In this document: one piece after another, positions 13,958 through 57,504 of the stretch | How positions within the stretch are numbered: the stretch's first letter is position 1 | Layout of the letters: each line of letters opens with the position of its first letter | IMG/VR virus record: IMGVR_UViG_3300029305_006219 | Source of the DNA: a virus | Length of the DNA stretch: 64,000 nucleotides | Reading direction: 5' to 3' (one strand) | Notes under the pieces: generated by a model | Told to the model about the DNA's origin: nothing | Databases searched by the model: none | The model's input: only the letters and a program-made list of their open reading frames with translations | Translations under genes and position numbers: made by a program

Positions 13958-14032
13958 TGGTGAAGCGAATGGGAATTGAACCCACAACGCAGTTGAATAG
14001 TGTCAACCTCATTACCTTTGTGATACCGCTTC
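13958..14032 (-). tRNA. tRNA with CTA in the anticodon loop: candidate amber (UAG) suppressor tRNA
   Basis: Minus-strand sequence GAAGCGGTATCACAAAGGTAATGAGGTTGACACTATTCAACTGCGTTGTGGGTTCAATTCCCATTCGCTTCACCA. The 7-bp acceptor stem has one G.U pair. U8, A14 and GG are in the D-loop. The T-arm is GTGGG/CCCAT with loop TTCAATT. CCA is encoded. The anticodon stem GTTGA/TCAAC is perfect but the loop CACTAT has 6 nt, which is atypical, so the fold needs software confirmation. Confidence 0.6.
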
Positions 14033-14074: not shown

Positions 14075-14217
14075 GAGGTTTTCGAAAAATATTTGCAACT
14101 ATTTTTCTTATCTCCGATACTTTCCTACTCAAAGCTTTCGTGTCCGTTCTCTTGTTGTACACCAAGTTTCTGATTTCCATTCCTTGCAAGTTAATTTCTC
14201 CGCACGAGGTTCCCCCT

Positions 14218-22692: not shown

Positions 22693-22696
22693 AGCT

Positions 22697-24875: not shown

Positions 24876-24917
24876 CAAGATTGAAAATTTTGAATATAAT
24901 ATTTAGAGAAAGAAGAG

Positions 24918-26522: not shown

Positions 26523-26539
26523 GGAGAGGAGAAACGGAA

Positions 26540-28446: not shown

Positions 28447-28464
28447 TAAGGGAGGGATATAGTA

Positions 28465-29517: not shown

Positions 29518-29603
29518 TTAAACTTGAACTTTCAGAGGGAAGAGAAGAAGGTGGGTCTTCCTTCCCTCTTAAATTCTAAATGGAGATAAAAGGAGATATA
29601 ATT

Positions 29604-30182: not shown

Positions 30183-30200
30183 TATTAAGGAGGTGTTCGT

Positions 30201-33327: not shown

Positions 33328-33362
33328 TAAAAAACTTAAAATATTTTAAGGAGGACAACTCT

Positions 33363-34286
33363 ATGCAATTTGGTATTAGAGAAATATGCGACGTCGTATT
33401 TAAGGCTAAAAATGCTGGAAACCTTGGTTCCTTTAAGTATGTTGCAGGACAGCCTGTTCTTTATATTGACAGCGCAAAAACTTCCACAATGGAAGGCGCA
33501 GCTACCACTGTTTATGCTCAGGGTGGTAAGGGTAATGCGCGTTTGATCGCTTGGGAAGGTGAGAGAACTCTTACTTTCACGGTTGAAGACGCACTTCTTT
33601 CTGAGCTTGGATTTGCTATTCTTTCTGGCGCTGGTCTTTTAAAGGCTGGTGAAAAAGTTGGAGAGAATACTCATGTTGCTCATGTTCATTCTACTTCTAG
33701 AACTGTTATTGGTACAGATGGAAAAATCGATCTTAGTGATGTTCTCGGTGAGAATGAAACTATCGATGAAGCTTCTCCTGTTTTTGTTATGCTAATGGAG
33801 CATGGTTCGCTTAAGAATATTCTTACTGGTTGCACTATTGCAGAAGATGGTAAATCAATTACTGGACCCATCCAAATGGACGGTGAGACGGCGGTTGAAG
33901 CAGATGTCTTTGTTGACTTCTATATTCAAAAGACAGCTGGTGTTACAGAAATGACTATTGATATGGAGAACTTTGCAGGTTATTATTATGTTGAAGCATC
34001 TACTCTCTTTAGACGTCAATCTGACGGTAGAGACTTACCTGCTGAGCTTATTTTCCCGAACGTTAAAATTCAATCTAACTTCACATTCTCAATGGCTTCT
34101 ACTGGTGATCCTTCTACATTTACATTCACAATGGATGCAATGCCTGGATACACTCGTTTTGATCGTTCTAAGAAAGTTCTTTGCGCAATGCAAGTTGTTG
34201 ACGAAGATACTAGCGATGACAAGGATCCTGATAAAGATTCTGCTGATTTGATAGCAGATGCAGAAAAACTTTATCCTATTGCTTAA
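33363..34286 (+). CDS. abundant tail protein (307 aa, no in-frame TAG); candidate tail tube protein
   Basis: Strong RBS taaggagg. Intact ORF followed by a strong terminator. The position upstream of the chaperone/tape-measure genes supports the call. Confidence 0.45.
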   Translation: MQFGIREICDVVFKAKNAGNLGSFKYVAGQPVLYIDSAKTSTMEGAATTVYAQGGKGNARLIAWEGERTLTFTVEDALLSELGFAILSGAGLLKAGEKVGENTHVAHVHSTSRTVIGTDGKIDLSDVLGENETIDEASPVFVMLMEHGSLKNILTGCTIAEDGKSITGPIQMDGETAVEADVFVDFYIQKTAGVTEMTIDMENFAGYYYVEASTLFRRQSDGRDLPAELIFPNVKIQSNFTFSMASTGDPSTFTFTMDAMPGYTRFDRSKKVLCAMQVVDEDTSDDKDPDKDSADLIADAEKLYPIA

Positions 34287-36733: not shown

Positions 36734-36828
36734 GGTCAAAATAAGATAAATTTAATACCCTAACTATTATATATTAGTAGTATAGGGTATTTTATTTTAC
36801 CTAAAACGAGAAACAAGGAGGATATATA

Positions 36829-39800
36829 ATGGCTAATTAGGAAAGAATTAATTTCTAGGTTGGTTTTAATGTAGATTAGTCTGGTTTAAATTAGTTAAAA
36901 ACAAGTTTATCTAATTTATAGAATATGAAACCAGCGGACTTAACTAATATTAAAAATTTGGCTGAGGCTAAAAAAGAATTATCTATTATTCAACAAGAGG
37001 CTAAGAAAGTATAGAATGCACTTGAAGCTAGTTTTAATCCTACGTTAGGCACGCATAACATTGATATTTTTAAACAAAAATTAATAGAAAATGGTGCTTC
37101 TATTTAGGATATAAAAAATAAATTTGCATCTGCGGGTGCCGAAGGTACAACTGCATTTAGAAATTTAGCAACAGCAATTTCATCAACTAAATTACCGCTT
37201 CAAGAGACACATAATTTATTGCGCTCTATGGGCACTACATTGATGAATACTATTAAATGGTCTATTGCATCTTCAGCTTTATAGACGATCACTTCTTCTG
37301 TTCAATAGGCATGGAATTATACTAAATAGCTAGATAAATCATTAAACAATATTATGCTTGTTACTGATAAAAGCGCAGAGTCAATGGAGAAATTTGCGCG
37401 TCAAGCAAATAAAGCGGCTAGGGAATTAGGTAAAAGTACTAAAGATTATGCCAATGCTGCTTTAATATATTACCAACAAGGTTTATCTGAAGAAGAGGTA
37501 AGAGCTAGAACAGAAACAACGCTGAAAGTTGCAAATGTTACGAAACAAAGCACAGAAATGGTTTCTGAACAATTAACCGCGGTTTGGAATGGTTATAAGG
37601 TATAGGCGCAAGAAGCTGAAGCTTATATCGATAAAATTGCAGTTGTAGCAGCAACAACCGCAGCCGACTTAGAAGAGCTCTCTACTGGTATGTCTAAAGT
37701 TGCTTCTGCGGCTAGCAATATGGGAGTTAATATTGATTAGTTAAATGCAATGTTAGCAACTGTTATTTCCGTTACGCGCCAGGCGCCTGAGTCTGTTGGT
37801 ACAGCATTTAAAACCATTTTTGCTCGTATTAGTGATATTGAAGCGGGCTTAGATGCAGAAGCTACTCTTGGAGAATACACAAAACAAATGTCGCAATTGG
37901 GCTTTGATGTTTTAGATGCGAATAATAAACTACGCGATATGGGTAGCGTTGTTGAGGAAATTGGTAGTAAATGGAATACATTGTCGCGTGAACAATAGAT
38001 TTCATTGGCATAGACAATGGCTGGTACTCGTCAGTATAATAATCTTTTAGCGTTATTTGAAAACTGGAGTATGTATGAGAAGTCTGTACGAGATTCTGCT
38101 ACTGCAACCGGATTTTTACAAGAACAACAAGAAAAATATTTAGATTCTGTTGAAGCTCATTTAGAACAATTAAGCGCGGCAGGTGAGCGTGTATATGATG
38201 CTTTGTTTGATTCAAAAAGTACTAATAATCTTATTGATATTTTAACTGATTTTGTTACATTTTTTGGTAATGCTATTGAATCAATAGGGGGCGGCGGTAC
38301 TTTATTAATGGCTATTTTACCAGTAATGACTAAATTATTTTCTGGTAGTTTAGCATCTGGCATGGCTACATTTGTTACTAACATTCAAAATGCATAGCAG
38401 TCTGCTCAATCGCTGCGTGGATTATTAGAGAATATTAAAGAAATTCGTTTAAATGGGGATACTTTGACTTCTGATTATGATGAAAAAATTAGCGCTTTAA
38501 GAGAAAATTTAGTATTATTAAAGCAATAGGGTATTATTACAAATGAAACTTTTAATAATTTAACAGATACTATTAATGCTTTTGCAAATGCAGCTAATGA
38601 ATACGAGAAATCTATAGAAGCTTATGATCCTACTACAATAGGAGATTAGTATACAAAAATTTTATAGCGTGGCTTTAATATGCCTCCTGCTGGAAGTAAA
38701 TCCTCTGTCACAGAAGAGTCTGCATAGCTTTATATAAATCGTTTATCTGAATATGCTCGTGAAAATCCATTTTCAAATGAAGATTTTATAAGAATGGAAA
38801 ATTCAAGTGTTGAATATATGGATGCTTCTGCTGAAAATTCTTATAAGAGATTATATTTTGAGTTAGAGAATGTTTAGGCTGCATATAACGAAACTATAAA
38901 ACGTGCATAGAATTTAACAAAAATTATTAACAATACATCATGGGATAAATTTAAGCAAGAAGGAAGCCCTGCGGTTAAAAAGTTTAATGACGAACTTCAG
39001 CATACGTTAAATGATGTTAATAAAATTTCATAGTCTGGATTACTTTCTGGATAGGACTTAACTCATTTTAATAAATATGCGTCAGTATTAAAAGGATTTA
39101 ATAAAGATACAAAAATTACTCAAGAATAGTTTGATCAAATATAGACAGCCGTGTCTGAAATTGAGCGTTTAACTAAACGCGCAATGGGCAAGGGCAATAC
39201 AGAAGCTAAAAAGATGTAGCAATCTTTACGTGAGCTTGGCGCAGCGGGGGTTGAGGCAAAATCTACTATGGATTAGTTTGGTGTGGCTGCTGAAATGGCA
39301 TTGCGTAAAGCTAACCTTGAAAAGCAAATTAATTCATTTATTCAATTAACATCTAATATTAGTATGGCAATTTCTGCGTTGACAATATTGTCTAATTTAG
39401 GTTCTATTTGGAAAAATGAAGATTTAACTGTTGGAGAAAAACTGTTATAGACATTATAGAATACTGTTACTACAATATCATTATTAAGTCCATTGATTAC
39501 AGGTCTAATTAAATTATATAGTACCCATAATGCTAAACTTGCAGAAAAAAATATTTAGACTGCTCAAGAAATTGCTTTAACACAAATTTTAACAACATTA
39601 AAAGATAAAGAAGCTAATGCAGAAACTAAACTGTGGGCAGCCAAATGTTTAGTAGATTTAGCCGGGGATGAAATAAATGATGAACTACGCGAAGAAATTA
39701 ATAATCATATTTTAAACGGTGAAGCATTAGATAATGAAACTATAGCAATTTTAAAAAATGCTGCTGCTAAAAAAATTGCTAATAATACTGATAATCCTTC

Positions 39801-42800
39801 TTTTAAAGATACAACGAAAGATATTTTTGATAGTGGGAAAAATAAATTTAAAGATTTTGGTAGTGGATTCAAAGAAGGCTGGAAAGGCACTGATTTAAAA
39901 GGCGTTAAAGGATGGAAAGCAGGTGGCGCAGGAGCCAAGGCAGGCGCAGCAAAAGGTGGCGCTGCTGGTATTGGACAAGCTATTGGAGCGGTGGCGCCTT
40001 ATATTGCAGCATTTGCAGCAGTGGCCGCGATTATTACAGGAACTGCAGCAATCGGCATTGCTGTTTAGAATAAAGAGCAAAAAGCTTTTGAGCAAGCAAC
40101 AGAAGCTGCAAAAGCTCAATAGGCACAATTACAAGCCACACAACAAGAATGGGATAATTTATAGTCTTCTATTTCAAATCTAGAAAATGCTAAAACTGCT
40201 TTAGAAGATTTAACTGAAGGAACGGTTGAATGGAATAAGGCTTTAACAGATATTAATAATCAAGTCTTAGATTTATTAACTAAATATCCTGAATTAGCAT
40301 CATATATGGAGCGCGATCCTATTACTGGAGAATTATCTATTGATCCAGAAGGCTTAGAGCTAATATAGCAGAAATAGTATGAAGAACTACAACGTGCTAC
40401 ATCTCGTACCTTACTTACAGATATGGCTGCCGATCGCAAGGAATATGAGTATGCTCGTAAAGAATATGTAGAAGGTTCTAGTTTTGGAGGTCAAGCAGGT
40501 GCAGATTTAGCAGCGGGAGCAGGTGCCATTGGCGCCACAGCAGGAGCTGGTATTGGCGCAATTTTTGGACCGTTAGGTATGGTTATCGGCGCAGCTATTG
40601 GTGGAGTTGGCGGCTTAATTGTTACAGCGATTACGGATGCAAATGAAGATACTAAAGCTCAAAACTTAGAATCTGATGAATCTTATCGCAAAGCTATGGA
40701 TGCCTATACCGCTGGTAACACAGCTGTTTTTAATTCTTATGAAACATTAGCAAAGGTTTTAGGTAAAACAACGAATGAGTTAACGGATACTGAAAGAGCA
40801 TTGGTTGATAATACTGCAGAGACTAAGGCTTTAGCTGAAGCTTATCGTGCAAATGAAGCAGGAAAATAGGATAAATATATTGAGCTTGGTAAATCTATAT
40901 TAGGAGAAGGCTATTCTTTAGGTGAGTATTATGCAGCAGGAGAAAAGGCTGATACAGAATACTAGGCCTCATTAGAATAGGTTAAATCTCAATATGCTGG
41001 TTTTGATCAAGCAGACAAAAAAGCAGGAATAGATTATTTAAAAACATTAGGGTTAGATGAGAGTAATTTTGTAGGCACTAAAGGTTCTAATAGATTTTAG
41101 TATATCGATGCGGAAGGCAATGAACAAGATATATCGATGACTTAGATATATGCGGCTTTAGCTTCAGATATGGCTTCAGATTTAGCCAAATCGACTAAAG
41201 GCATTACGACAATGGCATTGGCGCCAATTGTAAATAAATTTCAAGATGAAACTGCAAAATCTGCTGTATCATTATTAAGATCTGGTAATGCAAATTATGA
41301 AAAGTTAAATAAGGCTGCCTTAAAAGAATTAACATCAGTTACATTAACCGCCGAAGAATTAACTAAATTAAGTGAAGCAACTGGTAAATCTGCAGATGAT
41401 TTATTGAGTGTTCATGAGGCTGCTGTGACGGCAGCTAACGCCTCATGGGATAAAGTAACTTTAGATATGCCTATTCATATGCAAGCTGCTTTTACTACAT
41501 TAGAAAACTCAATTACAACTGATTTATTAAGTCCTGAGCAGTGGGCTGCATTTAGTGGATATTTTACTGAATTATGGGAGCGCTATGGCGCAGAATCAGC
41601 TAATAAATTTGCTGCCGTATTTACTTCTATGGGTGAAGCATCAGATGATGTTATCGTAGCAATATAGGAAATAGATTGGTCTTCTATTGATAATGTTGAA
41701 AATGAAATTAAGAGAATTTTTACAGATTTAAATGTTACAGTTCCTAATGATGTTTTTGATGATTTTACGGCACAATGGCGTGCTTTGTGGGGCCAGGCCA
41801 TTACTCTTGAAGAGCTTCAAGATAGTTATGCTAATTTTCAATCTATTATGCAAAAAGTTGCAAAAGAGAGTAAGATTGCATAGGATGAATATGATAAGTT
41901 ATCAGATAAACAAAAAGAGTATTTTACCGTTTTAGCTGACGGTACAGCATTATTAATTGGTAATGCTAATGAATTATACTAGCAAGGTAAAAAAGACGAG
42001 AGAGAAAAGTTTTTTAATAGTTTAAATATTAGTCAAGGTAATTTACAAAATTATACATAGAAAAATATTGAAGCAAATAAAGCAAGAGATGACCTAAATA
42101 ACCTTGATAGAGTATCAAAGTTTATTGATGTATCAAATTTAAATATTCCAAACACAATAACAGTTTCAAATATACCTAATTTGACAAGTGGAGAGGCTTC
42201 TTTTGATACAATTGTTGCTGCATTTACAGGAAATAAAACTGGAGATCTAACATGGTCTAAAAATTAGACACAAATTATAAATGCAGCTTGGGAAAAAATA
42301 AATAATGCTTCAGCATCAGATTTATATTATAATAAGGATAAATTTTTACTTTCTGGAGGTTTTGGCCATTGGGGGTAGAGCCGAGTAAAGGAACAAAATG
42401 CCTTACAAGGGTTTAATACTTTATTTTCAGATTATATAGATATATTAATAAAGAAAAAAGTAGCAGCCGGAGATTTAATTGAAAATAAAGATTATGACAC
42501 TTATGAAAAAGAATATAATGAGCTGCAAGGTAAAATTGAAAGTGAAGTAAGTAACACGACTATAAATGAAGAACAAAGAAAGTATGATGGTGTAATGCAT
42601 CAGCTGCTTACTACTTATGATTCTGTCACAGAGCTTGAAAATGCATTAATTAATGGAACAGCAATTAAAGATTTTGTAAAGGGAGATATTTATACTGTTA
42701 CAGAAGACTAGAAAAAATAGGCTATTGAAGCTATTGAACTTCGTACTGTCATTAATTCGTTATAGGGACAAGAAAATGAATTAAATTTAGATAGTTTTAA

Positions 42801-45800
42801 TATTTTTAAAAAGAATTTTTCATCTCAGGAAGAAGCTTTAAAACAGCTAATTTTAGGACATAAAGATTTATCGCATTTAATTACTGATAATACTAATGAA
42901 CTTGAATATTTATAGAAAGCTTATGAGTCTTTAGGTAAAAGTGAATAGCTTGATAATTTAATAAAATAGTCATCTTTATTGTCAAAAAATATTAATTTAA
43001 CTCGGTAGTCATTAGGACGTGATGTTCAGCTTGATAAGACAATTATTGAAGCTAATTTACAAAATGTTGCTACAAATATGCAAGCAACTGGCATTAAAGT
43101 TGACGCAGCTTTGTTTAGAAAAATGTTTGCTGCAGATGGAACTTTTGATGCGAGTAGTTTAGTAGCGTTAGAAACATATTATGCTGAAAATGTATCAGAA
43201 ATTATAAATAATCCTATTTTAAAAGAGAGTTGGAATAATTTATTTGAAGCGATAGAAAAATCATAGTCTAATTATGAAGAAAACTATAATGCATGGCTTG
43301 ATAGTATTTATAATTCATTTGATAAAAATCTTGAAGTATTAGAAATAAAACTAGAATTAGCTTTTGATAAAACAGATTTTGAAAGAGCTTATAATGATTA
43401 TATTAAAACTATTTATGATGATGATTATGTAAAAATAGGAGAAGTTTTATTAGGAGATATTAATACTTATGCAGATGATATTAACAATATTAACGAAGCA
43501 ATTAAGGGCCTCAATGAGGGATTAATAATTTCAGAGGAGACTTTTGAGAAATTTTCATAGCTACCTGCTGAAATTACTTAGGCTACTTATGATGCTATGG
43601 ATGACAGTGCCAAAAAGTTTTATGATGAAGATACCTTAAAACTTCGTACAGACATTTATACGTTAAAAGGTGCTGAAGAGAAAAAATAGGAACTTTTAAA
43701 CCAGTTAATGGAAAAAGGTCTGTCCCTTGAAGAGGCGCGCGCCGCAGTTTATGACCATATTAATTCGTACTTAGATGATGTATCTAGTGCATATGAAACT
43801 TATATTGGATACCTTGAAGATATTTCAGAGATATTGGAACAATAGGTTTCTTTAAATGAATTACTTTATGGAGATAAAGCATTTAAATATTTAGATGGTT
43901 ATTATAAATCTGCTTTAAGCAATCAAACGAAAATAACAGAAAAGCGTAGAGAAGATTATGAGACTTAGCTTAAAGAATATGAATTAGTAAAAGATAGCGA
44001 AGAATTGAGCCCAGAATAGGCTGAAAGATATTTAACTGCTCGCTCTAATTATTTAAGTGAATTGGTTAATAAAGCTACTCTTATTACTGAACAATTTGCA
44101 AATGATGTCAAAGTAACCATTGCAAACTTTGAAGAAGAGGTATTTGGTAATACTGTTGCATCTCTTAAAGAAGAGTGGGAATGGTTCAAAGATATGAGTG
44201 ATGATTATCTGGATTAGATTGATGCTGGCTATGGTATTGATGCTATTGAAATAGCTTTTGAAAAGGCATTATAGTCTACTAAATTATCTGTTAATGCGCA
44301 ACAAAAACTAAATGATTTAAGAAATCTTGAATTAAAGGCTTTGCGCAAAAAGGATAAATTAACTCAATATGATTTAGATAGGGCGCAAAAGCGTTTAGAC
44401 TTATTACAAGCAGAAATTGCTCTTCAAGAAGCTCAAGAAAACAAAACTCAAATGCGCCTAATGCGCGGAGCAGATGGTACTTATAGTTATCAATATGTTG
44501 CTGATTAGAGTAAAATTTTAGAATAGCAAGAAGCTTTAAATAAGGCGCAATAGGAACTAGTTAACTTAGACGAGGAAGAGTTGAAAAAGACTTTGGACAA
44601 TGTAGCTTCTCTTTGGGAAGATTGGCAATAGACTGTCTCTGAAAAGATTACTAGTGGCGAATGGGATAAGGAAGAAGATGCTCAAGAGTATACAGATAAA
44701 TAGTTAGCGCGATTTAAAGATAGTTAGCTTCGAACAAAAGAGTTACTCGATAAGCTTGGCTGGAGTGCAGAAGATGCATAGATTAATTTAGGTTTAGATT
44801 ATGAGTTAAGTGAAATTTTTACCTGGTTATAGTCAGATTGGGCCGAAAGTATGACCACTGCAGAAAGTACTTTTGCAGATAAGTCGCAAGAGATTATAGC
44901 TGAAATTTTTGCATCTAAAAAAGAAGCCGATGAACAACTAAATAATATAAATATGGCTTTTAAAGGTATTTCGGATAATTTATTATCTGACACAGATGGT
45001 ATTTTATCAAAATAGGAATAGGTTATTGAAAAATTAGAGGCAATACGTAAGGGTATATTAGGAGACGGAGAAGAAAAAACTGAAAGTCTACTATCTAGTA
45101 TAAAAGGGTTAGAAGGTGCAATTTCAGAATACACTGGTACAATCGCTCAGACGGTTCAAGGGGCTATTAATAATGGATTAGGACTTTAGGGCGGTGGATC
45201 TCCTGATACCAATCTTAGTCTTAGTAAAAGTGATATTGAAGATGCTCAATATTTTCTTAATAATAAAGGATTTACAGTTACAGATACAGTATCGACTTCT
45301 GGTGGTGCAAAACCTGGAGACACTAGCTTAACAATAACTGGAGAATTGGACTCAGGTACCGAAGAAGCGATTAAAGAGTATTAGCTCCGAATGGGATTAG
45401 CTCCTACTGGTAAATTAGACGCTCAAACTTGGGAGGCAATGAAGAAAGATCCAGAATGGGAAAAATCCAGTGGAATTAATGATGCAGGTTCCGATCATCT
45501 TGATTTTATTGACAATGAATAGAATATAAAAGATTTGGCGCGTACTTTAACTGAGATGGGTCATGGTTTGTTTTACGAGGATTTAACAACATATACGGGC
45601 GCTCTTAGAGACATGGTGGCAAAGATTCAAGAAAGAGCTGGTTTACCTGTCACTGGTTTAATGGATAAAAATACCTAGTAGTTAATTGAAAGAATAGGCT
45701 CTTATTAGACTGCTACTAGATTAAAATAGTATAATGAAATGTTTAATAAGAATTATTCATCATGGGCAGCTCTCAATCAAAGTGGAGATTTATCTAAAAA

Positions 45801-46257
45801 CATAACGCAAAACCAAAACTCAAATGATAGAAGTGGAGTATATTTAGATAATGCTGAAGAGGTTCTCAATTTTACAGAACTTTATAATAATTATAGACGA
45901 TTATCTAAGTTTGATACTGGTGGTTACACAGGAGACTGGGGCGCCGAGGGCCGACTTGCGATGCTTCATGAGAAAGAAATAGTTCTCAATAAACAAGACT
46001 CTTCGAATTTCCTTGATGCACTTGATATTCTCCGCACTTTAAATCTTTCGATGGTTGATTAGATGGCGAATTACAATTTTGGTTTTACGCATTCTCAAGC
46101 GGCATGGGAAGCGCTTAATAGTTCGACTATTGAATAGATTGTTAATATTAATGCGGAGTTCCCGAATGCTACTGACAAGGACGAAATTAAAGAAGCTTTT
46201 GAAGACTTGGTTAATTTAGCATTGTAGTATACAGGTAAGAATTCTCGAGTTAAATAA
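36829..46257 (+). CDS. tail tape measure protein (about 3142 aa, many tens of in-frame TAG codons)
   Basis: Track ORFs 37354, 37750, 38017, 40423, 41170, 43078 and 45739 are all in frame 1. Hand translation of the intervening stretches meets only TAG, never TAA or TGA, until the TAA at 46255-46257. Gly/Ala-rich glycine-zipper TM-like segments (GWKAGGAGAKAGAAKGGAAGIGQAIGA..) are present. The TP901-type region EELSTGMSKVASAASNMGVNID and the C-terminal FDTGGYTGDWG block are recognisable. A hairpin terminator follows at 46261-46295. Confidence 0.6.
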
Positions 46258-46363
46258 AATAAGGCGGCTAAGGGCAACTTTAGCCGCCTTTGGGCATTTC
46301 TATTTAATTTATTTATTATAATTTTTATATTTTTAGAAGAGAAAAAAGGAGGTATAATAATTT

Positions 46364-49300
46364 ATGAGTAATAAATATGCTGATAATTTATTTCAAGCTA
46401 TTGAAAAAATAGCCAATACTAATTCAACTTGGAGAGTTGTTACTGGTGAAATCGTAAATTGCACTGCATATATTGATGGACAATACGTTTATAAAGTGCG
46501 GTATGAAGGAAATATAAGAACCGTTAATACTCCTTTGAGTTTGGCAGAAGGCGATTTAGTTAGACTAGGAGTAGATAATACTAATACAATAAGCGGAGAG
46601 CAATGTTTTATTTTAGAGAAAATTATTTCTAATACATTGACAGAAACTCAAAAAATATCAAAATCATATACTAGAAAAGGAACTGTGCTTTCTATTGATG
46701 AAGAATTTGATTATTCCCCGCAAGAATTAGTATTATATGATATAGAGGTGCCTGATGATTCGATTATTTCTAAAGAAGAAATAAATAATTTAAATGTTAG
46801 TTTAAACGAAGAAGATTTTGACCATATAGTTTTAAGTTTAAATTATACTTCGGCAATAGCTTCTACGAAAAATAGAGCATTGGTGGTTACTATAAAAGAT
46901 GACTCAAAGCCCGCGAAAGAGATTCTAATAACTCTATCATTTTTATAGACTTCTTTAATTCAAAAAGAAGTTGCTTAGGTTAGTGAATTTATAAAAACAG
47001 AAGGTAGAATCTATACTATTACCAAAGTTGTGTTAAAGGGTCTTGAGGAAGGAGACAAAGTATCTAATATCAACATTTATTGCGCCAAAAAGAAAGAAAC
47101 TTCTGATTTGTTTGAGGTTATTATCAAGGCGCGTGATGGGTTAACTTTTGTCTAGAATGATGTTGATTCAATCTAGGTCAGCGCCTATTTATAGTTTAAA
47201 GATGCAGGTTTTAGCTAGGCTTTTGATAATAGTAATGTAACGTATGCACTTTATGCATATAATGGTGCAGACACTTGGATTCAAAAAATAGCTCCAGGTA
47301 CAGAAACTACATTTAGTATTCAACGCGATTGGATTTTTAATCAAACAAGAAAATTTAAAGTTGTTATTAGATACAATGGAGAGGATTTCGAAAAAGAGTT
47401 TACTGTTCGTAATTTAGCGGCGTCAAAGATTGACGTTATTGTTAGCTCTTCTCAATAGAATAAGGATTATTATCTTGATGATAATGTTATATTAATAGGT
47501 AGTCCTGGAGAGGGTTATACTTACTCTTGGTATAAAGCCGATACATTAGGTGGAGAATGGAGCGAATAGTTTGGTAAGACGGATGCTTCACTTATAGTTC
47601 AGAATGCAGATATTGTGGATCAAGATGAGTATTTATTTGTCGTTTATAAGAATGTTGAATATGTGGGTGAAGCTTCGATATCAGTCTTTAACAAGTAGGC
47701 GCTTGAAAAAAGTATGATTTCTTTTAGTATTTAGTATTTATCTTCAAAAAAAGAGCCTAAAGAAGATACTGACGGTTGGCAAAATGAAATGCCAGAAAAA
47801 GAAAATGATAAATATATTTGGCAAAAAATAGAGCGAATTTATATTAACGGATTAAAGTTGGTTTCTATTATTAATATAAGTGGCGCAGACGGAACACCTG
47901 GCGCGCCGGCGATTTCAATACAATCTAATGTTGAGACTTTAACTTTTATTAAGTCAAGCATTGGCAATATAAGTCCTGCCTCAATAGGCTCTATTATAAT
48001 TACAGTCAATAAAGGCGGGGTTGCAGATACAGTCACAAATTATTTTTGTAAATGGTATAAAGGTACTGATTCTAATATAATAAATTCTAATTTATCTTCT
48101 AATAAGAATATTGAAAATGGTATATTTACTTTGGATATTGAAAATATGGCTATTGGATAGGTTGTTTATAAAGTTGAGGTTTATCAAGGTGAAACCACCG
48201 CTACAGATCCTCCATTGATAGGAACTAAAACTATTACAATAATTTGTAATGCAGCTCAAGTTAGTTATACTTTAGTTCCTGATAAGAAATAGATTACTAT
48301 TACTTCTGAAATGCTAATTGATTCGTCTAAACTTCCAAAAGTGCGTTTAGACGTTTATAAAAATGAAGCCGGAATATCAACTCCTATTTTAATACAAGAT
48401 ATCAATAACTCAAAGATAGCGCCTAGTATCGAAATAAATGGTAGTAGAACAATAACATCATTAGTCGAGGGTGAAACAGACTAGACTAAAATACGTTATT
48501 TTCAATACTCTATTACAGAAAATGATTTGAAAACTGCCGAAAATATAATCTTTACTTTAAAAGTAGCTGACCAATTAAATACAACTGCTAAAGAATGGGA
48601 TACCGAAACTTTAAGTTTTATTATTACAGTTGATAAAATAGAGCCATAGTACGCAGGAACTTTAACTTCAGCTTAGCCGGATATAGAATCAGATGCTATT
48701 GAGAACAGTGAGACAGAAAAGAGTTTAGTTCCAGGTGGTTGGTCTACATCTCTTGATAAAGTCGTTCAACTTTCAGGTATTTTATATATTTGGTATCGAG
48801 AAAAAATATATTTTAGTAATGGAACATATGATTTTACCGATCCAAGAGTTGATAGTTCTGAAATGGCTTTAAGAGACTGGGCAGTAAGTGAAAATAAAAC
48901 TTTAATTGATGGTTCAAAAATTTATACTGGATCCATTAGCGCTGATAAAATAAATGTTGATAATCTTAATGCGCTTGCCGCCGAAATTGGCGGTTGGAGT
49001 ATAAATGACTATGGCATTTACAAAGACGATGGAGATAGTAAATCAGCAATGGTTTCTACCTCTGGAGAATAGCGTTTTGCTTCTGGAGGTACTATAGCTT
49101 GGGAAAATATTATAAGTGGAATAGAGTGGGATAGCGATAGGGAAAATGTTATTATTACAACAGACGATACTCATAAATTTAAATTTTCTTTTAGATTTAA
49201 AGGTAGACCATATTCAATGCCTTATGAAGGTAAAATTGGAGAATAGGTGTTTTCTTATACTAATTTTCAAACTTGGTTATCTAACGTGTTTAATCCATAG

Positions 49301-51328
49301 TTAACACTATATTATAAATAGATTAATATTAATAATGGTGAACAAGAAGCTTCTTGGTAGTTATTAAATAAAAATGTATATAGCTTTGAATGGAAAGAGC
49401 CAAAACAAAATAAAATTGAATGCACTGGTTAGATAAATAATACAGCTGGTTTAAGCGGCGGTCTGATTTTAAAAGTAGTAGTCATATATAAGAATTATGA
49501 TTTCTCTGGAATGACAAAGCCTACGTATGAAGTAACAGCAGATGGTAGTATGTCAGCAAAGTTAGGCTATATTGGTGGTTGGAAAATTGATGAAAATAGT
49601 ATTAGTGTTGAGAATGAGAGTTTCTCCCTTATATCAGACGATAGTAGTATGGGAATATCACTTTTAGGTGGAGGAAACTCACCGCACCGTATAGTTGTAG
49701 GCGGAAGCGGTGGAGGTGGCAGCGGTGATGGTGATAATAGCGGTGGCGATGATAATGGTGGTAGTGGAGATTCTACTACTATAACAGTTTTAGTTTCGAA
49801 AGAGAAAAGCATAACTCTGTCAGCTTAGAAGACTGAAGCAAAACAATTTTTACATGAAGGTGTAGATAGTACGTTTATATTAAACTCAATAGAAGGAGAA
49901 GGGGGTTCTTATATTACTTCTATTGAATATAATCCTGATACTAAGTAGATTACTGTCTATTATAGTAATCCAACCTCTTCAGATGCTTAGATAACTATTG
50001 GATATACTGTTCATACTTATTAGACTATACCAAATACAACTACGAGTAGTGCTAATTTAACTGCAAGTAGTAGTACTAGCTCAAGCAACTATACTTTTTA
50101 GTTATTAGCAGACGGTAGCCTGTATGCGAGCGCCGTAGATATTAAAGGTACTATTACTACAGAAAATGGATATATTGGTGGTTGGAATATCGGTCCAAAT
50201 GGATTATACAGTCCCAAATTAGCATCTGGCTCAATATTTAGTTTAAATAGTACTGGCATTGGTAGTTATGATTATCCTTTATTATAGTTACTTAGCTCTT
50301 TTAATATTCCTTCAGATATTAAAGATAGCATAAAATTAGAAGATTTGGGAGTACTTATAGAAAAGGAAGAATATATGTTAAAAGCATCAGCAAGATTTTC
50401 GTTCAATGGTCTTTCGGTAGACGAGTTTAATGCGCAGTATGGTTACAATTTTACAGTTAGTATACGTAATGAAGGAGATTTTTAGTATATAACATTTACA
50501 TATGGAGCGGAACTAAATGTTAAAACAGTAAAAATTGACATATTTGTTGATAATGTTTTTTCTACTTATTCTTTTGCCGTACTTCCTCGACATTTATATT
50601 ATTCTACTGGAAATTTATCTGGTGACATCTACTATGGTGACTGGATTATATTCGATGGCTTATATTTTCAAAACGGTTCTGACAATGGCGCGACTCCCTT
50701 TGGTACAAGTTTAAAATATATTGAAAGTGGTTATCCAACCATATTTTCTACAGCTACTGCTTTAAAAGAAGATCCTAACAGTGGAAATATAATAATATAG
50801 CCAGGGGAATATTTTACAGTTATTCTTAATCAAACAGTTTATTCTTCATGGTCATGGACGCTTATTAAAAGGAAAGCTGATGAAAAGACAGTTTTTTTAC
50901 TTACAGGTTCAAATGGCGATCCTCTTGCCTTTTTAGACTATAATGGTAATTTATTTGCTCAAACTGTAAATTCAACAGGTAGTGACTAGAGAATAAAAAA
51001 TTCGATTCAAGCTATTCCTTTTTAGTACGAAGAAGCTTATGATAATTTTGAACCTGTTATTTATAAATATAATGATGGAACCTCAGACAGATATCATACT
51101 GGTTTTATTGCACAACCAATGGCACAGGCGATCGAAGATGCAGGCTTAACATTGCAAGATTTTGCTGCAGTATGCAAGCCAGCCTATGACGGTGGTACTT
51201 GGGGTATTCGTTATGGAGAAATTGTTTCGCTGAATACATGGCAAATTCAAAAAGCTAAAAAACGTATCACGGCACTTGAACAAGAAGTTTAGAATTTAAA
51301 AGATATAATTACTTCATTGGTTAAATAA
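46364..51328 (+). CDS. giant tail fibre / host-specificity protein (about 1654 aa, many in-frame TAG) with a C-terminal peptidase S74 intramolecular-chaperone domain
   Basis: Track ORFs 46364, 47789, 48863 and 49511 are all in frame 2 and joined through TAG. A Gly-rich linker GGSGGGGSGDGDNSGG is present. The C-terminus SD(TAG)RIKNSIQAIPF...HTGFIAQPMAQAIEDAG...YGEIVSLNTWQIQKAKKRITALEQEV matches the auto-cleaving chaperone domain of phage tailspikes and fibres. TAA at 51326-51328. Confidence 0.55.
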
Positions 51329-51650: not shown

Positions 51651-51765
51651 TTAAAATTCTTATCAAAATGATTTAATCGAATTATTTTAGTTTTTATATA
51701 TTTATAGACAAAGAGAGAAATAATTTATTTCTCTCTTTGAATTTTAAGATAGGAGGTTATTGAAT

Positions 51766-52098
51766 ATGGTTATTCAACAAAATTGTAATTTTATTGAAAA
51801 TGCCAGTGCTCCTATTGTATCAAAAACATTTTCTAATGCGGCAAGCGACACCTTAACGCTGCAAATAAGTGGCGCTAATGGTAAGTATTATCTTGAAGGA
51901 CGCAATAATTCTATGGGTGACTGGTTTGCGCTCGCAGGTATTAGCTTAAGTGACTTCTCTGCCCACCGAGGAGTGTTTACAAAAGCTGGTATCTATGAGA
52001 TTGGCGTAGTCGGTATTCGTGAAGTACGCGTACGAATAGAATCAGTAGAAGGAAATGTTTCTATTTTTGGACAAATGATAAGCACGGAGGAGACGTAA
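51766..52098 (+). CDS. hypothetical structural protein (about 110 aa)
   Basis: RBS ataggagg plus ATG at 51766, inside track ORF 51760..52098. Confidence 0.45.
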   Translation: MVIQQNCNFIENASAPIVSKTFSNAASDTLTLQISGANGKYYLEGRNNSMGDWFALAGISLSDFSAHRGVFTKAGIYEIGVVGIREVRVRIESVEGNVSIFGQMISTEET

Positions 52099-52987: not shown

Positions 52988-53005
52988 AAGGGGTATAGAT
53001 AAGAT

Positions 53006-53872
53006 ATGGCAAGAGAAAAAGGTACATTTCTAGTCTCAGCTAATTATGAGCCGCAAAAAGCTGCCCCATTCGATGCGCGGGCTTTGGTTGAAACTAAAGC
53101 AGATTTATTTGCGGCAAATACATGGGCTATAAATAACGAATTGTGGATTTATAAAGGTATGATAGTTGCAGTTGCAACTGACATTGAGCCTAAAAACAAT
53201 GGTATTTATATGCTCTTAGACGATGTAAATTATTTTAATGAAGATGCTTGGCTTAAAATGTCTGACTCAACCATGGACGGCGAGTCTGCTGGTGAGGTTC
53301 TAGGTCAATTAAATTCTTATAAAGAGACTAACGATGCGGTAGTTGCTGCTATCAATGGTAAGATTGGAACTCCTGGTGAGGGACAAAATGATGAAGGCGA
53401 TACGCTTTATAGCTTAATTGCAGAAGCGCAAACTCAGGCTAATAAAGGTGTTGCCGATGCGAAGACAGCGAATGACGCAATTGCAGCGTTAACCAATGGC
53501 GCAATTGCTACTAATACATCTGACATTAGCGCAATTAAAGGTAGACTTACTACTCTTGAGACAGAAGTTCTTCCTATTATCAATAAGCATAGTGATATTC
53601 TTGCAGGCATTGGCGGCGATGGTGAAAAAGCAACAGTTAAGGCATATGTTGATGATGCTATTGCAGCAATTCCTACTTATGAACTTCCTGCAGCTACTGC
53701 TGAAACTCTTGGTGGAGTTAAGTCTGCGGCTGATGTTGACGGGAAAGCAGTTACAAATGCAGTTTATGTTGATGCAACTAGCAATGTTGGTAGTGTAAAA
53801 ACTATAAGCACAGATATATTAGTCCAAGGGGTCGAAGAGCTTATTCTTAATGGCGGTAGCGCCAAGGCTTAA
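53006..53872 (+). CDS. fibre-like structural protein (288 aa, no TAG)
   Basis: Intact ORF with an Ala/Thr-rich repetitive C-terminus. A GC hairpin at 53903-53926 carries the same 23-mer as 17775-17797, in inverted orientation. Confidence 0.45.
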   Translation: MAREKGTFLVSANYEPQKAAPFDARALVETKADLFAANTWAINNELWIYKGMIVAVATDIEPKNNGIYMLLDDVNYFNEDAWLKMSDSTMDGESAGEVLGQLNSYKETNDAVVAAINGKIGTPGEGQNDEGDTLYSLIAEAQTQANKGVADAKTANDAIAALTNGAIATNTSDISAIKGRLTTLETEVLPIINKHSDILAGIGGDGEKATVKAYVDDAIAAIPTYELPAATAETLGGVKSAADVDGKAVTNAVYVDATSNVGSVKTISTDILVQGVEELILNGGSAKA

Positions 53873-53966
53873 TTATAAGCCACTTAATATATAAAATATA
53901 AGACGCCTTAGGGTGACCTTTGGCGCCGATTAAATAAATTCATAATTTAAAGGAGATTTTAAAATT

Positions 53967-55481
53967 ATGGCGAAACAAATTAATACTCGTATCATGCTTA
54001 AGCATGATAGCTTAACTAATTGGAATGAATCCTCTATAGTTCTTAAGCCAGGTGAAGTTGGTATAGCATATGTAGATGTTACAACCACTGATGCCAAGGG
54101 CAATATTATTCATGTTCCTACTGCTCTTTTAAAAGTAGGTGAAAATGTAGAGAATTCTACCAAAACTTTTAAAGAGCTTCCCTTTATGTCTGCTATTGCA
54201 GCTGATGTTTATGCATGGGCAAAGAAGAGCGGAATTGAAGTAGTAGACGAAGGAGAGGGAGAGGTTCTTTCTGATGTAACTTGGGAGAATGACAAACTCG
54301 TTCTTCATAGATTAGATGTTGTAACTCCAGCAGAACTTACAACGGCTCTTGGAAGTTACTATACAAAAGATGAAATTGATGGCAAGATTGAGGAAATCAG
54401 TCAGTCTATTTCGGACCTTGACGTATCTGCTCTTGAAGGTAGAGTTGATGCAGTAGAGACTGCTGTCGAAACAACACTCCCTGGTCAAATCAGCGCAGTA
54501 GATGCAAAATTTGCAAGCTATACAACAACAGCTGCGCAACAAGCAATTGATGCGGAACAGGATCGTAGACTTGGCGTTATCGAGGGTGATTATGTAAAAT
54601 CTGCTGATATTGCCAACTTTGAAACAAAAGAGAATGTTCAGAAGGTTGCAAACGATCTTGCAGGATATCAAACTTCTAATGACGCAGCTCTTGCAGCAGT
54701 AAAAGCAACAGCTGATGCGGCTGCAGTTAAGACTGAGGTTGAGACAGCTCTTGCTGATAGATATACTAAAACCGAGGCAGATGCTGCTTTTGATGCAAAA
54801 GGCAGTGCTGATCAAGCATTAACCGATGCTAAGGACTATACTGATACCCAAATTCAAGCTATCATGGGTGGAGAAGTCGATGAAGCTTATAACTCTTTCT
54901 TAGAGATTCAGAATTTCTTAAAGGCTGATGAAACTGCTACTGCTCAGCTTGTTGAAAAGGTAAATGCGAATGAGGCGGCCGCAGCTGCAGCTCAGGCAAA
55001 GGCTGATGCTGCACTTCCTACAGCTACCGCGGAGGCAGATTACTTAAAGAAAACAGATGCATCTACCATTTACGAGCCTATTGGTGCACAAGCTGCTGCA
55101 GAGGCTACTGCTAAAGGTTATACCGATACAGAGATTGCAAAGCTTAGCAATGTTTATGATGCTAAGGGTGCTGCTGCTGATGCACAGGCGGCTGCTATCG
55201 CAGATGCTGCGGGCAAGTATGAGACAAAAGGTACTGCTCAAGGTATTGTTGACGCTTTAAACCTTGCTCAAACTTATGAGCCTATTGGCGCAGAAGGTAG
55301 AGCTATTGCTGCGGCAAAGACTGAAACTGAGAACCAGATTGCAGCTCTTGGTATTGAAGATTATGCAAAGAGCGCAGATGTGGCTACTACATATCGCGCA
55401 AAGGCAGATAAGATTACTTCTGATGATCTCTCTGACGAAGTTTTCATCTTTAATTGCGGAACAGCATCTACTGTTATATAA
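53967..55481 (+). CDS. coiled-coil, alanine-rich tail fibre protein (504 aa, no TAG)
   Basis: Strong RBS taaaggag. Long Ala/Glu/Thr-rich repeats are typical of fibre shafts. A strong terminator follows. Confidence 0.5.
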   Translation: MAKQINTRIMLKHDSLTNWNESSIVLKPGEVGIAYVDVTTTDAKGNIIHVPTALLKVGENVENSTKTFKELPFMSAIAADVYAWAKKSGIEVVDEGEGEVLSDVTWENDKLVLHRLDVVTPAELTTALGSYYTKDEIDGKIEEISQSISDLDVSALEGRVDAVETAVETTLPGQISAVDAKFASYTTTAAQQAIDAEQDRRLGVIEGDYVKSADIANFETKENVQKVANDLAGYQTSNDAALAAVKATADAAAVKTEVETALADRYTKTEADAAFDAKGSADQALTDAKDYTDTQIQAIMGGEVDEAYNSFLEIQNFLKADETATAQLVEKVNANEAAAAAAQAKADAALPTATAEADYLKKTDASTIYEPIGAQAAAEATAKGYTDTEIAKLSNVYDAKGAAADAQAAAIADAAGKYETKGTAQGIVDALNLAQTYEPIGAEGRAIAAAKTETENQIAALGIEDYAKSADVATTYRAKADKITSDDLSDEVFIFNCGTASTVI

Positions 55482-56146: not shown

Positions 56147-57502
56147 ATGGCAACACAAACACTTTATCCACCTATTATTGATACTGCAAAAGGAACAGTT
56201 TTCACTAATTAGGGTATAACTGTTTATTTTAATTTAATAAACAAAATAATCTCTAACAAAGATAAAATTTTAATAAAACAAGAAGACATTGAAACTGGCA
56301 ACATAGATTGGCAACTTTTAACCAGTTCTAATAATAGTATTAAAGCTAATTATATAGATGGTTTTAAAGATATACTTATTTATCTATATTTAATAGACAC
56401 TTCTGTTTCTACTACTCCTGTAGAAGGATGGAAGGATTGGTTAAAAAATACTAATAATAAATCTTTACACTCAGAAGCGAGTACTGGAGTGAGATTTAAT
56501 TATTTGACTCAAATTCCTAGTTTAGATATAAGTTGGACGAATATTGGTCGTAATAATACAATATCTATAACAGGACAAGATAGTTTATCTGAGGAAGATT
56601 TTATTACTTATTTTGCATTTACTTGTGCGGGAAAAACTTAGGAATTTTATTCTTCTCTACCTACAGATTTTAAGTTTATTTTATCATATAATTTAGTTGG
56701 AACCGCTATTAATTATCAATATACTTATAAAACTTTTAAAGGATATGTATATTCTGGATCTGGCTTAAGAGAATGGACGGCATCAAACGAATCTTTGGCG
56801 CCCATTACTTATTCTTTTGAAAAAGAATATAGTATTAAAATATCTAATCCTAATGGTTATGAGATATATAAGAAAATAGACGAACAAGAACACAGTTTAG
56901 GCACTGATACTGATATAACCGATTATCTTTTAGAAGGTTCTCATGATGTTTATTACTATAATAACCCTGATGCCTCTGTTATAAATGAACCTCATATCGT
57001 GATAAATAAAGTCTTTGATGATATGTTTTTATTGTCTAAAAATAAAACATTACGTATTAGATTTAATCCAGATATATCTAGCTATAAACGCAACGTAGCA
57101 GATGTAATCACTGCCACATTAGGGGGCGCCTATCCATTTGTAAGACGCAACGGCGCACAAAAATATCGCACTTTTACTATTAATGGTATGATTTCCTACG
57201 AAGGCGAAGATTTAACTGATGATAGATCTTTACTTAATGAAATTACATTATTATCCGATGATTCATATGATAATCATGTAATTAATGAACGTAAATATCG
57301 CGATAAGGTTTTAGACTTTCTTTATACACCAGATATTAAATTGTTTAAATCAACTCAAGAGGGTAATATTTTTGTTTATTTATCTAACATTTCATTGACC
57401 CCTGAGAAGACGCTTTGGCGCTCAATTTACTCCTTTTCTTGCACTGCGACAGAAGTTGCTCCTTAGTATGACATGTTTAAGTTGGAGTCAATAGGAGGTT
57501 GA
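56147..57502 (+). CDS. hypothetical structural protein (about 451 aa, 3 in-frame TAG)
   Basis: RBS aaaggag plus ATG at 56147, in frame with track ORF 56795..57466. TGA at 57500-57502. Confidence 0.45.
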
Positions 57503-57504
57503 TT

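What the first reader, a model, noticed from the sequence alone, without database searches (positions are those of the whole stretch)
46364..51328. 1650-aa fibre with a self-cleaving S74 chaperone domain whose SD-x-R motif contains a TAG
The C-terminal roughly 110 residues match the intramolecular-chaperone auto-processing domain of tailspikes and fibres (SD(TAG)RIKNSIQ ... HTGFIAQ ... NTWQIQ ... ALEQEV). The codon right after the cleavage-site Ser-Asp is TAG. The residue inserted there, and any failure to insert it, would directly affect maturation of the receptor-binding protein. This is a sensitive position for a recoded codon.
Basis: partly seen in the sequence, partly recalled or inferred. 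Interest (0 to 1): 0.5.

Follow-up and report, generated by a model that had tools for sequence, protein, structure and literature searches.

The report
Recoded-TAG phage fibre with S74 chaperone
This is a genuine 1654-residue phage tail fibre ending in a self-cleaving S74 chaperone domain, in a phage that reads TAG as glutamine; the TAG after the cleavage-site Ser-Asp sits at the most variable, glutamine-tolerant position of the motif, so it is an ordinary recoded codon.

Summary
Window 46364-51328 (+) is one reading frame of 1654 codons plus TAA, with 32 in-frame stops, all TAG. The last 115 residues match Pfam Peptidase_S74 (36.6 bits, cutoff 22, full profile) and solved chaperone domains. 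Codon 1542 (nt 50987-50989), directly after Ser1540-Asp1541, is TAG.

The claim that this is a sensitive position is not supported.
- In 158 diverse S74 domains, Ser, Asp and Lys(+5) are each 157/158. The TAG column (+2) is hypervariable (3.2 bits; R, A, K, I, E, V, L, Q and others).
- Four standard-code fibres carry a true CAA (Gln) at +2.
- Another recoded fibre has TAG at the same site.
- TAG behaves as a Gln codon. Across 15 syntenic genes of a 75%-identical relative, 36 of 55 TAG/non-TAG pairings are CAA/CAG.
- TAG supplies 47% of the fibre's Gln codons and is not enriched in the S74 domain (3 found, 2.2 expected).
- Failure to decode TAG would already truncate the protein at codon 195, so codon 1542 adds no special risk.

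Verdict: a new member of two known kinds, an S74 fibre and a code-15 phage with recoded late genes. Interest is low. No canonical tRNA(CUA) was found in the 77 kb examined, only a non-canonical candidate.

The parts
46364..51328 (+). Tail-fibre gene: 1654 codons plus TAA, with 32 in-frame TAG codons read as Gln
   Evidence: all internal stops are TAG, there is no TGA, and the only TAA is the terminator. PHROG 1980 'tail fiber protein' matches the C-terminus. The gene lies directly after the tape-measure gene.
46346..46353 (+). Ribosome-binding site AAGGAGGT, 10 nt before the ATG at 46364
   Evidence: Read directly from the sequence.
46261..46290 (.). 11-bp G+C-rich hairpin between the tape-measure gene and the fibre gene
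   Evidence: The scan scores it as terminator-like on the - strand only; its function was not tested.
46364..50980 (+). Predicted mature fibre (residues 1-1539) left after autocleavage; contains 29 of the 32 TAGs
   Evidence: Inferred from the position of Ser1540 and the known cleavage N-terminal to the catalytic Ser (PMC8326128). No Pfam domain was detected in this part.
50981..50998 (+). Cleavage motif S1540-D1541-TAG1542-R1543-I1544-K1545: Ser nucleophile and Lys general base, with TAG at +2
   Evidence: S 157/158, D 157/158, K 157/158; the +2 column has 3.2 bits of entropy.
50987..50989 (+). The TAG codon in question (codon 1542), read as Gln
   Evidence: Gln (CAA) is found at this column in standard-code fibres L023-L026, and TAG at the same column in the recoded fibre L022.
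50981..51325 (+). Peptidase_S74 / C-terminal intramolecular chaperone domain (residues 1540-1654); the Pfam match covers 50981-51148. It holds two further TAGs at 51023-51025 and 51290-51292.
   Evidence: (4182 homologues at E<=0.001). The C-terminal helix is the only confidently modelled part.
36829..46257 (+). Upstream neighbour: giant tape-measure protein of about 3140 codons (82 in-frame TAGs in the 3150-codon open frame 36805-46257)
   Evidence: Pfam PF10145 PhageMin_Tail at 109 bits.
13958..14032 (-). Candidate, non-canonical amber-suppressor tRNA: a six-nt anticodon loop CACTAT that contains CTA
   Evidence: Rfam tRNA 38.9 bits against a gathering score of 29 when searched locally. ARAGORN at a relaxed threshold labels it 'Ser|Pyl'. 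It is unverified and was not found in IMG/VR.

Best explanation
The gene encodes the long tail fibre (receptor-binding protein) of a roughly 135-kb siphovirus related to large phages of Bacillota. The phage's late genes are written in genetic code 15, where TAG means Gln.

Proposed sequence of events:
1. The full 1654-residue chain is translated once amber suppression is active in the infected cell (inferred).
2. The C-terminal 115 residues act as an intramolecular chaperone. Three chains associate through this domain, which nucleates folding of the upstream fibre (inferred from family membership).
3. Ser1540, activated by Lys1545, cuts the bond between Gly1539 and Ser1540. This releases the chaperone and leaves a mature fibre of 1539 residues (inferred from family membership; both catalytic residues are present).

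Codon 1542 is one of 32 ordinary Gln-coding TAGs. It lies two residues after the nucleophile, at a position the family leaves free to vary and where Gln occurs naturally. It also lies in the fragment that is discarded after cleavage. It therefore has no special role in maturation beyond that of any in-frame TAG: the fibre cannot be made until TAG is decoded.
For: S74 membership:
- Pfam 36.6 bits against a cutoff of 22, full profile.
- PDB matches to the GA-1 neck-appendage chaperone 3GUD, the long tail fibre 6F45 and the tailspikes 6EU4 and 9VVR, all with S-D-x-x-x-K.
- 4182 homologues, mostly at the C-terminus of proteins of 900-2300 aa.

Catalytic residues:
- Ser, Asp and Lys(+5) are each 157/158, and all three are present here.
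- The dyad's role is documented in PMC8326128.

Tolerance at +2:
- Entropy is 3.2 bits: R41, A21, K20, I17, E16, V10, L10, Q8.
- CAA at +2 in four standard-code fibres, and TAG at +2 in another recoded fibre.
- CGT and ATC at +2 in two further fibres.

TAG = Gln:
- At TerL's 8 TAG columns, Q is the majority residue in 7 and is 120/120 in 3.
- The codons interchange in both directions between TAG and CAA/CAG against relative L009.
- Over 15 genes, 36 of 55 TAG/non-TAG pairings are CAA/CAG.

No enrichment:
- 3 TAGs in the domain against 2.2 expected, P = 0.37.
- TAG is 47% of the fibre's Gln codons, giving a normal 4.1% Gln.

Late-gene bias matches the published pattern (bioRxiv 10.1101/2021.08.26.457843; proteomic proof of TAG->Gln in PMC9523058; the related recoded phage phAss-1 in PMC10607447).
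Against: - Autocleavage, trimerisation and the identity of the inserted residue are not shown experimentally for this protein.
- No canonical tRNA(CUA) was found in the 77 kb of the roughly 135-kb genome that could be read. The only CTA-bearing tRNA-like gene has an abnormal 6-nt anticodon loop.
- The AlphaFold monomer model was too poor (pLDDT 54.7) to confirm the fold.
- About 35% of TAG/non-TAG pairings are not Gln. That is roughly what 75% protein identity would give, but no control with ordinary CAA/CAG codons was run, and it does not exclude occasional misincorporation.
Confidence: 0.85

Rival explanations
1. Programmed checkpoint at the cleavage site. The TAG at +2 is decoded less efficiently than the other TAGs, so a fraction of chains terminate at Ser-Asp1541. 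These would closely mimic the mature fibre but lack the chaperone, and suppression efficiency would then tune fibre assembly.
For: A stop at codon 1542 would give a product only two residues longer than the predicted mature fibre. A second recoded fibre (L022) has TAG at exactly the same position.
Against: TAG is not enriched in or near the motif. The shared TAG is what a Gln codon would give at a column where Gln is found in 5% of homologues, and 4 of 5 such Gln residues are plain CAA in standard-code phages. Other recoded or related fibres have CGT, ATC or Ile there. Thirty upstream TAGs must be read through first, so nothing singles this one out. From my own knowledge, chaperone-less endosialidase does not fold and the chaperone does not act in trans.
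Confidence: 0.03
2. TAG encodes an amino acid other than Gln (for example Lys, Glu, Tyr or pyrrolysine), which would change the chemistry next to the nucleophile.
For: No canonical tRNA-Gln-like CUA suppressor was found. The candidate tRNA has G1-C72/A73, unlike the phage's own tRNA-Gln(UUG), which has U1-A72/G73. Lys is the second most common partner of TAG, at 6 of 55 pairings.
Against: CAA/CAG account for 36 of 55 pairings. Three TerL TAG columns are invariant Gln in 120 relatives. TAG->Gln is the reassignment proven by proteomics in other gut phages (PMC9523058). Even if the residue were different, the +2 column accepts K, E, R, A, I, V, L, S and M.
Confidence: 0.05
3. The TAGs are true stops, and the region is a decayed or fragmented gene, or a set of small ORFs.
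For: Standard-code gene callers split it into about a dozen ORFs of 40-194 aa.
Against: There are 1654 codons without a single TGA or internal TAA, against 69-182 in the other five frames. The Pfam alignment runs in frame across two TAGs. The same pattern is seen in TerL, portal and tape-measure genes, with TAG aligned to Gln codons in relatives. The sequence is identical in at least 8 samples.
Confidence: 0.01
4. The S74-like domain is retained only as a trimerisation or chaperone module and no longer cleaves itself.
For: Cleavage was not tested. The residues upstream of the Ser that help catalysis in endoNF (Arg897 of the beta-helix; PMC8326128) cannot be identified here.
Against: Ser1540, Asp1541, Lys1545, Ile1548 and the H-T-G-F-I-A-Q core are all intact, matching the near-invariant columns of 158 homologues.
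Confidence: 0.08

Closest known systems
C-terminal intramolecular chaperone domains (Peptidase_S74, PF13884) of phage fibres and tailspikes: endosialidase endoNF of phage K1F, GA-1 neck appendage protein (PDB 3GUD), long tail fibre distal subunit (6F45), tailspikes 6EU4 and 9VVR; also the ICA domain of eukaryotic MyRF
   Same: It sits at the C-terminus of a long fibre. It has the S-D-x-x-x-K motif with Ser and Lys(+5), the conserved G-T-S-D-R-Y-H-T-G-F-I-A-Q core and a C-terminal helix. It scores above the Pfam gathering threshold. The expected mechanism is trimer-dependent Ser/Lys autocleavage N-terminal to the Ser (PMC8326128).
   Different: Three codons of the domain, including +2, are TAG. 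Sequence identity to the solved examples is low (E from 2e-7 to 5e-3). The upstream fibre (residues 1-1539) matches no Pfam domain, so the fold the chaperone assists is unknown. Cleavage is untested.
Code-15 (TAG->Gln) phages with recoded late genes: crAss-like phages, Lak and the other clades of Borges et al., and the 136-kb gut phage phAss-1 (OQ749652)
   Same: In-frame TAGs are concentrated in the structural module, while most long early-region ORFs are TAG-free. TAG aligns to Gln in relatives. The genome is low in G+C (35%) and large, with a tRNA cluster. TerL is 42% identical to that of phAss-1.
   Different: phAss-1 carries three canonical tRNA-Sup(CTA) genes (PMC10607447). None was found in the 77 kb seen here, only a tRNA-like gene with a 6-nt CACTAT loop. 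The virion module is of the SPbeta type (YonG, YonD, YonB, YomU-X Pfam families in the relative).
Other S74 fibres found here in metagenomes: L022 and L014 (TAG-recoded); L012, L023, L024, L025, L026 (standard code)
   Same: Fibres of 1000-1900 aa ending in the same domain (45-57% identity in the domain). L022 even has TAG at the same +2 site, and L023-L026 have CAA there.
   Different: The fibre shafts are unrelated or highly diverged. The full-length search found only one weak relative.

Membership tests
Peptidase_S74 / C-terminal intramolecular chaperone domain | Match to the family profile above the curated threshold | tested here: met
   PF13884 at 36.6 bits against a gathering score of 22, E 5.5e-9, profile 1-58/58, residues 1540-1595, with X at the TAG positions.
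Peptidase_S74 / C-terminal intramolecular chaperone domain | Catalytic Ser at the start of the domain, with Lys five residues downstream (Ser/Lys dyad) | tested here: met
   S1540 and K1545 are present. Both columns are 157/158 in homologues. The dyad is defined in PMC8326128.
Peptidase_S74 / C-terminal intramolecular chaperone domain | Position at the extreme C-terminus of a long fibre or tailspike protein | tested here: met
   The domain is the last 115 of 1654 residues, and the gene follows the tape-measure gene. In homologues the domain ends within a few residues of the C-terminus.
Peptidase_S74 / C-terminal intramolecular chaperone domain | Sequence similarity to solved chaperone domains | tested here: met
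   3GUD at E 2.2e-7, 6F45 at 1.7e-5, 6EU4 at 8.2e-5, 9VVR at 5e-3 with a family profile. 3GUD at 2e-3 with the single sequence.
Peptidase_S74 / C-terminal intramolecular chaperone domain | Three-dimensional fold of the chaperone domain | tested here: inconclusive
   The AlphaFold2 monomer model has mean pLDDT 54.7, and only the C-terminal helix is confident. No fold search was attempted on it.
Peptidase_S74 / C-terminal intramolecular chaperone domain | Trimer-dependent autoproteolytic release of the domain | not testable with these tools
   Needs expression and SDS-PAGE or mass spectrometry.
Genetic code 15 (TAG->Gln) phage | Long conserved genes interrupted only by TAG, never by TGA or TAA | tested here: met
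   The fibre has 32 TAGs, the tape-measure frame 82, TerL 8 and portal 8.
Genetic code 15 (TAG->Gln) phage | TAG positions align with Gln in homologues, shown at the DNA level | tested here: met
   36 of 55 TAG/non-TAG pairings are CAA/CAG, and three TerL columns are invariant Q.
Genetic code 15 (TAG->Gln) phage | Recoded codons concentrated in late structural and lysis genes | tested here: met
   The pattern is as described in bioRxiv 10.1101/2021.08.26.457843.
Genetic code 15 (TAG->Gln) phage | Phage-encoded suppressor tRNA with a CUA anticodon | tested here: inconclusive
   No canonical one was found in the window plus about 13 kb of flanks. There is one tRNA-like gene with a 6-nt loop CACTAT. 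About 58 kb of the genome could not be read. Some recoded phages lack suppressor tRNA genes (PMC10607447).
Genetic code 15 (TAG->Gln) phage | Gln detected at TAG positions in the protein | not testable with these tools
   Needs proteomics.

The most novel reading that the evidence does not exclude
The TAG two residues after the scissile bond might be a leaky last checkpoint. Chains that terminate there would end at Ser-Asp1541, mimicking the mature fibre but lacking the chaperone. The level of amber suppression would then set the ratio of chaperone-bearing to chaperone-less chains, and so the timing or yield of fibre assembly. The only hint is that TAG recurs at the same site in an independent recoded fibre (L022).
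Probability: 0.03. Interest if true: 0.6.

Novelty: new member of a known kind. Interest (0 to 1): 0.14.

Why it matters
The finding matters mainly as a clean worked example and a caution. Standard-code gene callers break this 1654-residue receptor-binding protein into about a dozen fragments in public metagenome annotations. As a result its S74 domain appears as orphan 57-aa to 235-aa 'hypothetical proteins'. Recognising code 15 restores a complete fibre with a predictable maturation site at Gly1539/Ser1540, which helps host-range prediction and fibre engineering. It does not reveal new biology of the cleavage reaction, because the recoded codon sits at a tolerant position. The open question it touches is how this phage decodes TAG when no canonical suppressor tRNA is visible. 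That question lies outside the finding's coordinates.

Tried and rejected
- Megablast of the fibre against deposited phages found no match.
- Back-translated pattern search of IMG/VR with the C-terminal 214 aa found no confirmed relative.
The X-containing alignment gave a poor monomer model (pLDDT 54.7), so no fold search was run.
- Hunt for a suppressor tRNA:
  - ARAGORN and Rfam on the window, plus about 10 kb upstream (L019) and about 3 kb downstream (L016), found no canonical CUA anticodon, with or without introns.
  - The exact-pattern scans of IMG/VR for the candidate tRNA's anticodon arm and 3' half found nothing.
  - An apparent match of the tRNA region to relative L009 turned out to be a repeated element next to the tRNA, not the tRNA itself.
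- I considered and rejected enrichment of TAG in the S74 domain (P = 0.37).
- I considered and rejected a recurrent, selected TAG at +2: 4 of 5 Gln residues at that column are CAA in standard-code phages.
Full report
**1. What is in the sequence**

The frame starting at the ATG at 46364 runs for 1654 codons to a TAA at 51326-51328. It contains 32 in-frame stops. Every one is TAG, there is no TGA, and the only TAA is the terminator. The other five frames of the same 4965 bases contain 69-182 TAA+TGA codons, so this is a real reading frame.

A strong ribosome-binding site (AAGGAGGT, 46346-46353) precedes the ATG. An 11-bp hairpin (46261-46290) separates the gene from the one before it. The DNA at the site of interest reads GGT AGT GAC TAG AGA ATA AAA, that is G1539-S1540-D1541-TAG1542-R1543-I1544-K1545, with TAG at 50987-50989.

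The same fibre sequence is 99.97-100% identical in contigs from at least eight independent metagenome samples. One of the contigs holding this phage is 135,189 bp long. The TAGs are therefore not sequencing errors.

**2. Genomic context**

The window is part of a tailed phage. Identified genes:
- large terminase, 22658-24445;
- portal, 24900-26522;
- capsid-like protein, 28450-29517;
- tube-like protein, 33318-34286;
- a giant tape-measure protein, 36829-46257 (Pfam PhageMin_Tail, 109 bits);
- the fibre;
- further tail proteins downstream.

In a 78%-identical relative the same module carries the Pfam families of the Bacillus phage SPbeta virion (YonG, YonD, YonB, YomX, YomW, YomV, YomU). By terminase, the nearest annotated phages (42-46% identity) are large siphoviruses of Bacillota and the TAG-recoded gut phage phAss-1 (PMC10607447). 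No deposited phage is close at the DNA level.

**3. The code**

In-frame TAGs are abundant in the + strand late module: 206 TAG against 353 CAA and 78 CAG. Most long early-region ORFs on the - strand have none and end in TAA or TGA.

- At the eight TAG columns of the terminase, 120 relatives of 79-95% identity have Gln as the majority residue in seven columns and as the only residue in three.
- Those relatives were themselves called under an alternative code, so I checked the DNA. Where the window has TAG, relative L009 has CAA/CAG at six of eight sites. Where L009 has TAG, the window has CAA/CAG at three of four.
- Over 15 syntenic late genes (75% protein identity), 36 of the 55 sites where TAG faces a non-TAG codon are CAA/CAG. 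The next most common partner is Lys, with 6. Eleven sites are TAG in both genomes.

TAG therefore behaves as a Gln codon. This is the reassignment already proven by proteomics in other gut phages (PMC9523058), with the late-gene bias described by Borges and colleagues (bioRxiv 10.1101/2021.08.26.457843).

**4. The S74 assignment**

With X at all TAG positions, Pfam Peptidase_S74 (PF13884) matches residues 1540-1595 over the whole 58-position profile, at 36.6 bits (gathering score 22, E = 5.5e-9). The match begins exactly at Ser1540.

- The domain also matches solved chaperone domains: GA-1 neck appendage protein 3GUD, long tail fibre 6F45, and tailspikes 6EU4 and 9VVR (E from 2e-7 to 5e-3 with a family profile).
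- An exhaustive search found 4182 homologues. Among the 163 sequences aligned, 87 are proteins of 900 aa or more with the domain at the C-terminal end.
- A PHROG 'tail fiber protein' family matches the same region.

**5. Is the TAG position sensitive?**

The chemistry of the family rests on a Ser nucleophile and a Lys five residues downstream. Cleavage occurs on the N-terminal side of the Ser (MyRF S587/K592, equivalent to endoNF S911/K916). In MyRF, S587A and K592A abolish cleavage, while mutating the +3 Arg has only a partial effect (PMC8326128).

In an alignment of 158 diverse domains the columns look like this:

| Position | Residues |
|---|---|
| Ser | 157/158 |
| Asp (+1) | 157/158 |
| +2 (the TAG column) | 3.2 bits of entropy: R 41, A 21, K 20, I 17, E 16, V 10, L 10, Q 8, S 6, M 4 |
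| +3 | N 71, R 67 |
| Lys (+5) | 157/158 |
| Ile (+8) | 154/158 |

The +2 column is about as variable as the unconstrained linker columns in front of the Ser. The solved structures have E, R, A and A there.

I checked five of the eight homologues with Gln at +2 at the DNA level. Four are standard-code fibres with no in-frame TAG and a plain CAA at +2 (L023-L026). One (L022) is another TAG-recoded fibre with TAG at exactly this site. Other fibres have CGT (L014, recoded), ATC (L012, standard code) or Ile (L015). Gln is thus a natural, tolerated residue here, and TAG is its recoded spelling.

**6. Is the placement more than chance?**

TAG supplies 47% of the presumptive Gln codons in the fibre (32 TAG, 33 CAA, 3 CAG), which gives a normal Gln content of 4.1%. 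The S74 domain holds 3 TAGs where 2.2 are expected from the rest of the gene (P = 0.37). One of 32 scattered TAGs landing on one of the three free positions between Asp and Lys is unremarkable.

The argument that 'failure to insert' would affect maturation applies equally to all 32 TAGs. Termination at the first one (codon 195) would already remove everything, including the chaperone. The +2 residue also belongs to the released 115-residue fragment, not to the mature fibre.

**7. Most likely mechanism**

Shown:
- one open frame with recoded TAGs;
- a bona fide S74 domain with an intact Ser/Asp/Lys motif;
- TAG equivalent to Gln by comparative evidence.

Inferred from family membership:
- three chains associate through the C-terminal domain, which templates folding of the upstream fibre;
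- Ser1540, activated by Lys1545, cleaves the Gly1539-Ser1540 bond;
- the chaperone leaves, and a mature 1539-residue fibre remains.

Inferred from the published model: the fibre, like the other late proteins, can only be completed once amber suppression is active, so recoding acts as a late-gene gate on the whole gene and not at this codon.

**8. What remains open**

- No canonical tRNA(CUA) was found in the window or in the ~13 kb of flanking sequence I could reach. About 58 kb of the genome was out of reach.
- One tRNA-like gene (13958-14032, - strand) scores 38.9 bits with Rfam's tRNA model. It has an abnormal six-nucleotide anticodon loop, CACTAT, which contains CTA. It is a candidate suppressor at best. 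Its acceptor end (G1-C72, A73) differs from that of the phage's own tRNA-Gln(UUG), and it was not found in IMG/VR.
- The fold could not be confirmed, because the monomer model was poor.

**9. Verdict**

The idea that the TAG occupies a sensitive position is not supported.
- The gene is a new member of two known kinds: S74-capped fibres and code-15 phages.
- Interest is low for the finding itself. The unusual tRNA genes of this phage are the more curious lead.

Noticed in passing
window 13958-14032 (-): A tRNA-like gene missed by the default scans. Rfam's tRNA model gives 38.9 bits (gathering score 29) when the region is searched on its own. It has a perfect acceptor stem, a canonical T-loop, an encoded CCA, and a six-nucleotide anticodon loop CACTAT that contains CTA. 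It is a possible non-canonical amber suppressor located in the early region.
   Followed up: partly
window 10689-10760 (-): A tRNA (Rfam 44.6 bits) with an eight-nucleotide anticodon loop TTTCGTTT. ARAGORN reports a four-base anticodon 'tcgt'.
   Followed up: no
L019 13900-19950 (the ~10 kb just before the window start, same phage): A cluster of about 12-15 tRNA genes (Arg x2, Leu, Trp, Ile, Glu x2, Met, Ser, Ala, Gln-UUG and others). At L019 19030-19180 a tRNA-Thr(UGU)-like gene (Rfam 50 bits) carries a 78-81-nt insert in its anticodon loop. The insert itself looks like a tRNA, with its own acceptor stem, T-arm and ACCA.
   Followed up: partly
window 26501-27901, 28450-29517, 29580-30677, 33318-34286, 53003-55481: The scaffold-like, capsid-like, tube-like and two fibrous (Ala/Thr/Glu-rich) genes have no TAG at all, while their neighbours use TAG for 13-65% of their Gln codons. 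This may be avoidance of the recoded codon in the proteins needed in the most copies; expression level was not tested.
   Followed up: partly
window 49766-50059 and 58996-59286: The fibre (aa 1135-1232) and the tail protein encoded at 57481-59715 (aa 498-594) share a module of about 100 residues (36% identity, E 6e-11). It may be a shared docking or structural domain.
   Followed up: partly
window 46364-51328, fibre residues ~876, ~1071, ~1272 and ~1113-1136: Three copies of a G-Y/E-I-G-G-W-x-I motif are spaced about 200 residues apart. A Gly/Ser/Asp-rich linker (GGSGGGGSGDGDNSGGDDNGGSGD) lies in the middle of the fibre.
   Followed up: no
window 14019-14111: The sequence just upstream of the tRNA-like gene matches four places in the early region of relative L009 (71-86% identity). 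It appears to be a repeated early-region element, possibly a promoter or regulatory site.
   Followed up: no
window 36829-46257: The tape-measure protein is exceptionally long, about 3140 residues, with 82 recoded TAGs in its open frame. That implies a very long tail.
   Followed up: partly
window 51748-52098: The gene after the fibre and a small ORF is annotated PF27453 (XepA) in the precomputed calls for the identical contigs. My own Pfam scan of the window translation found no family at E <= 0.01.
   Followed up: partly
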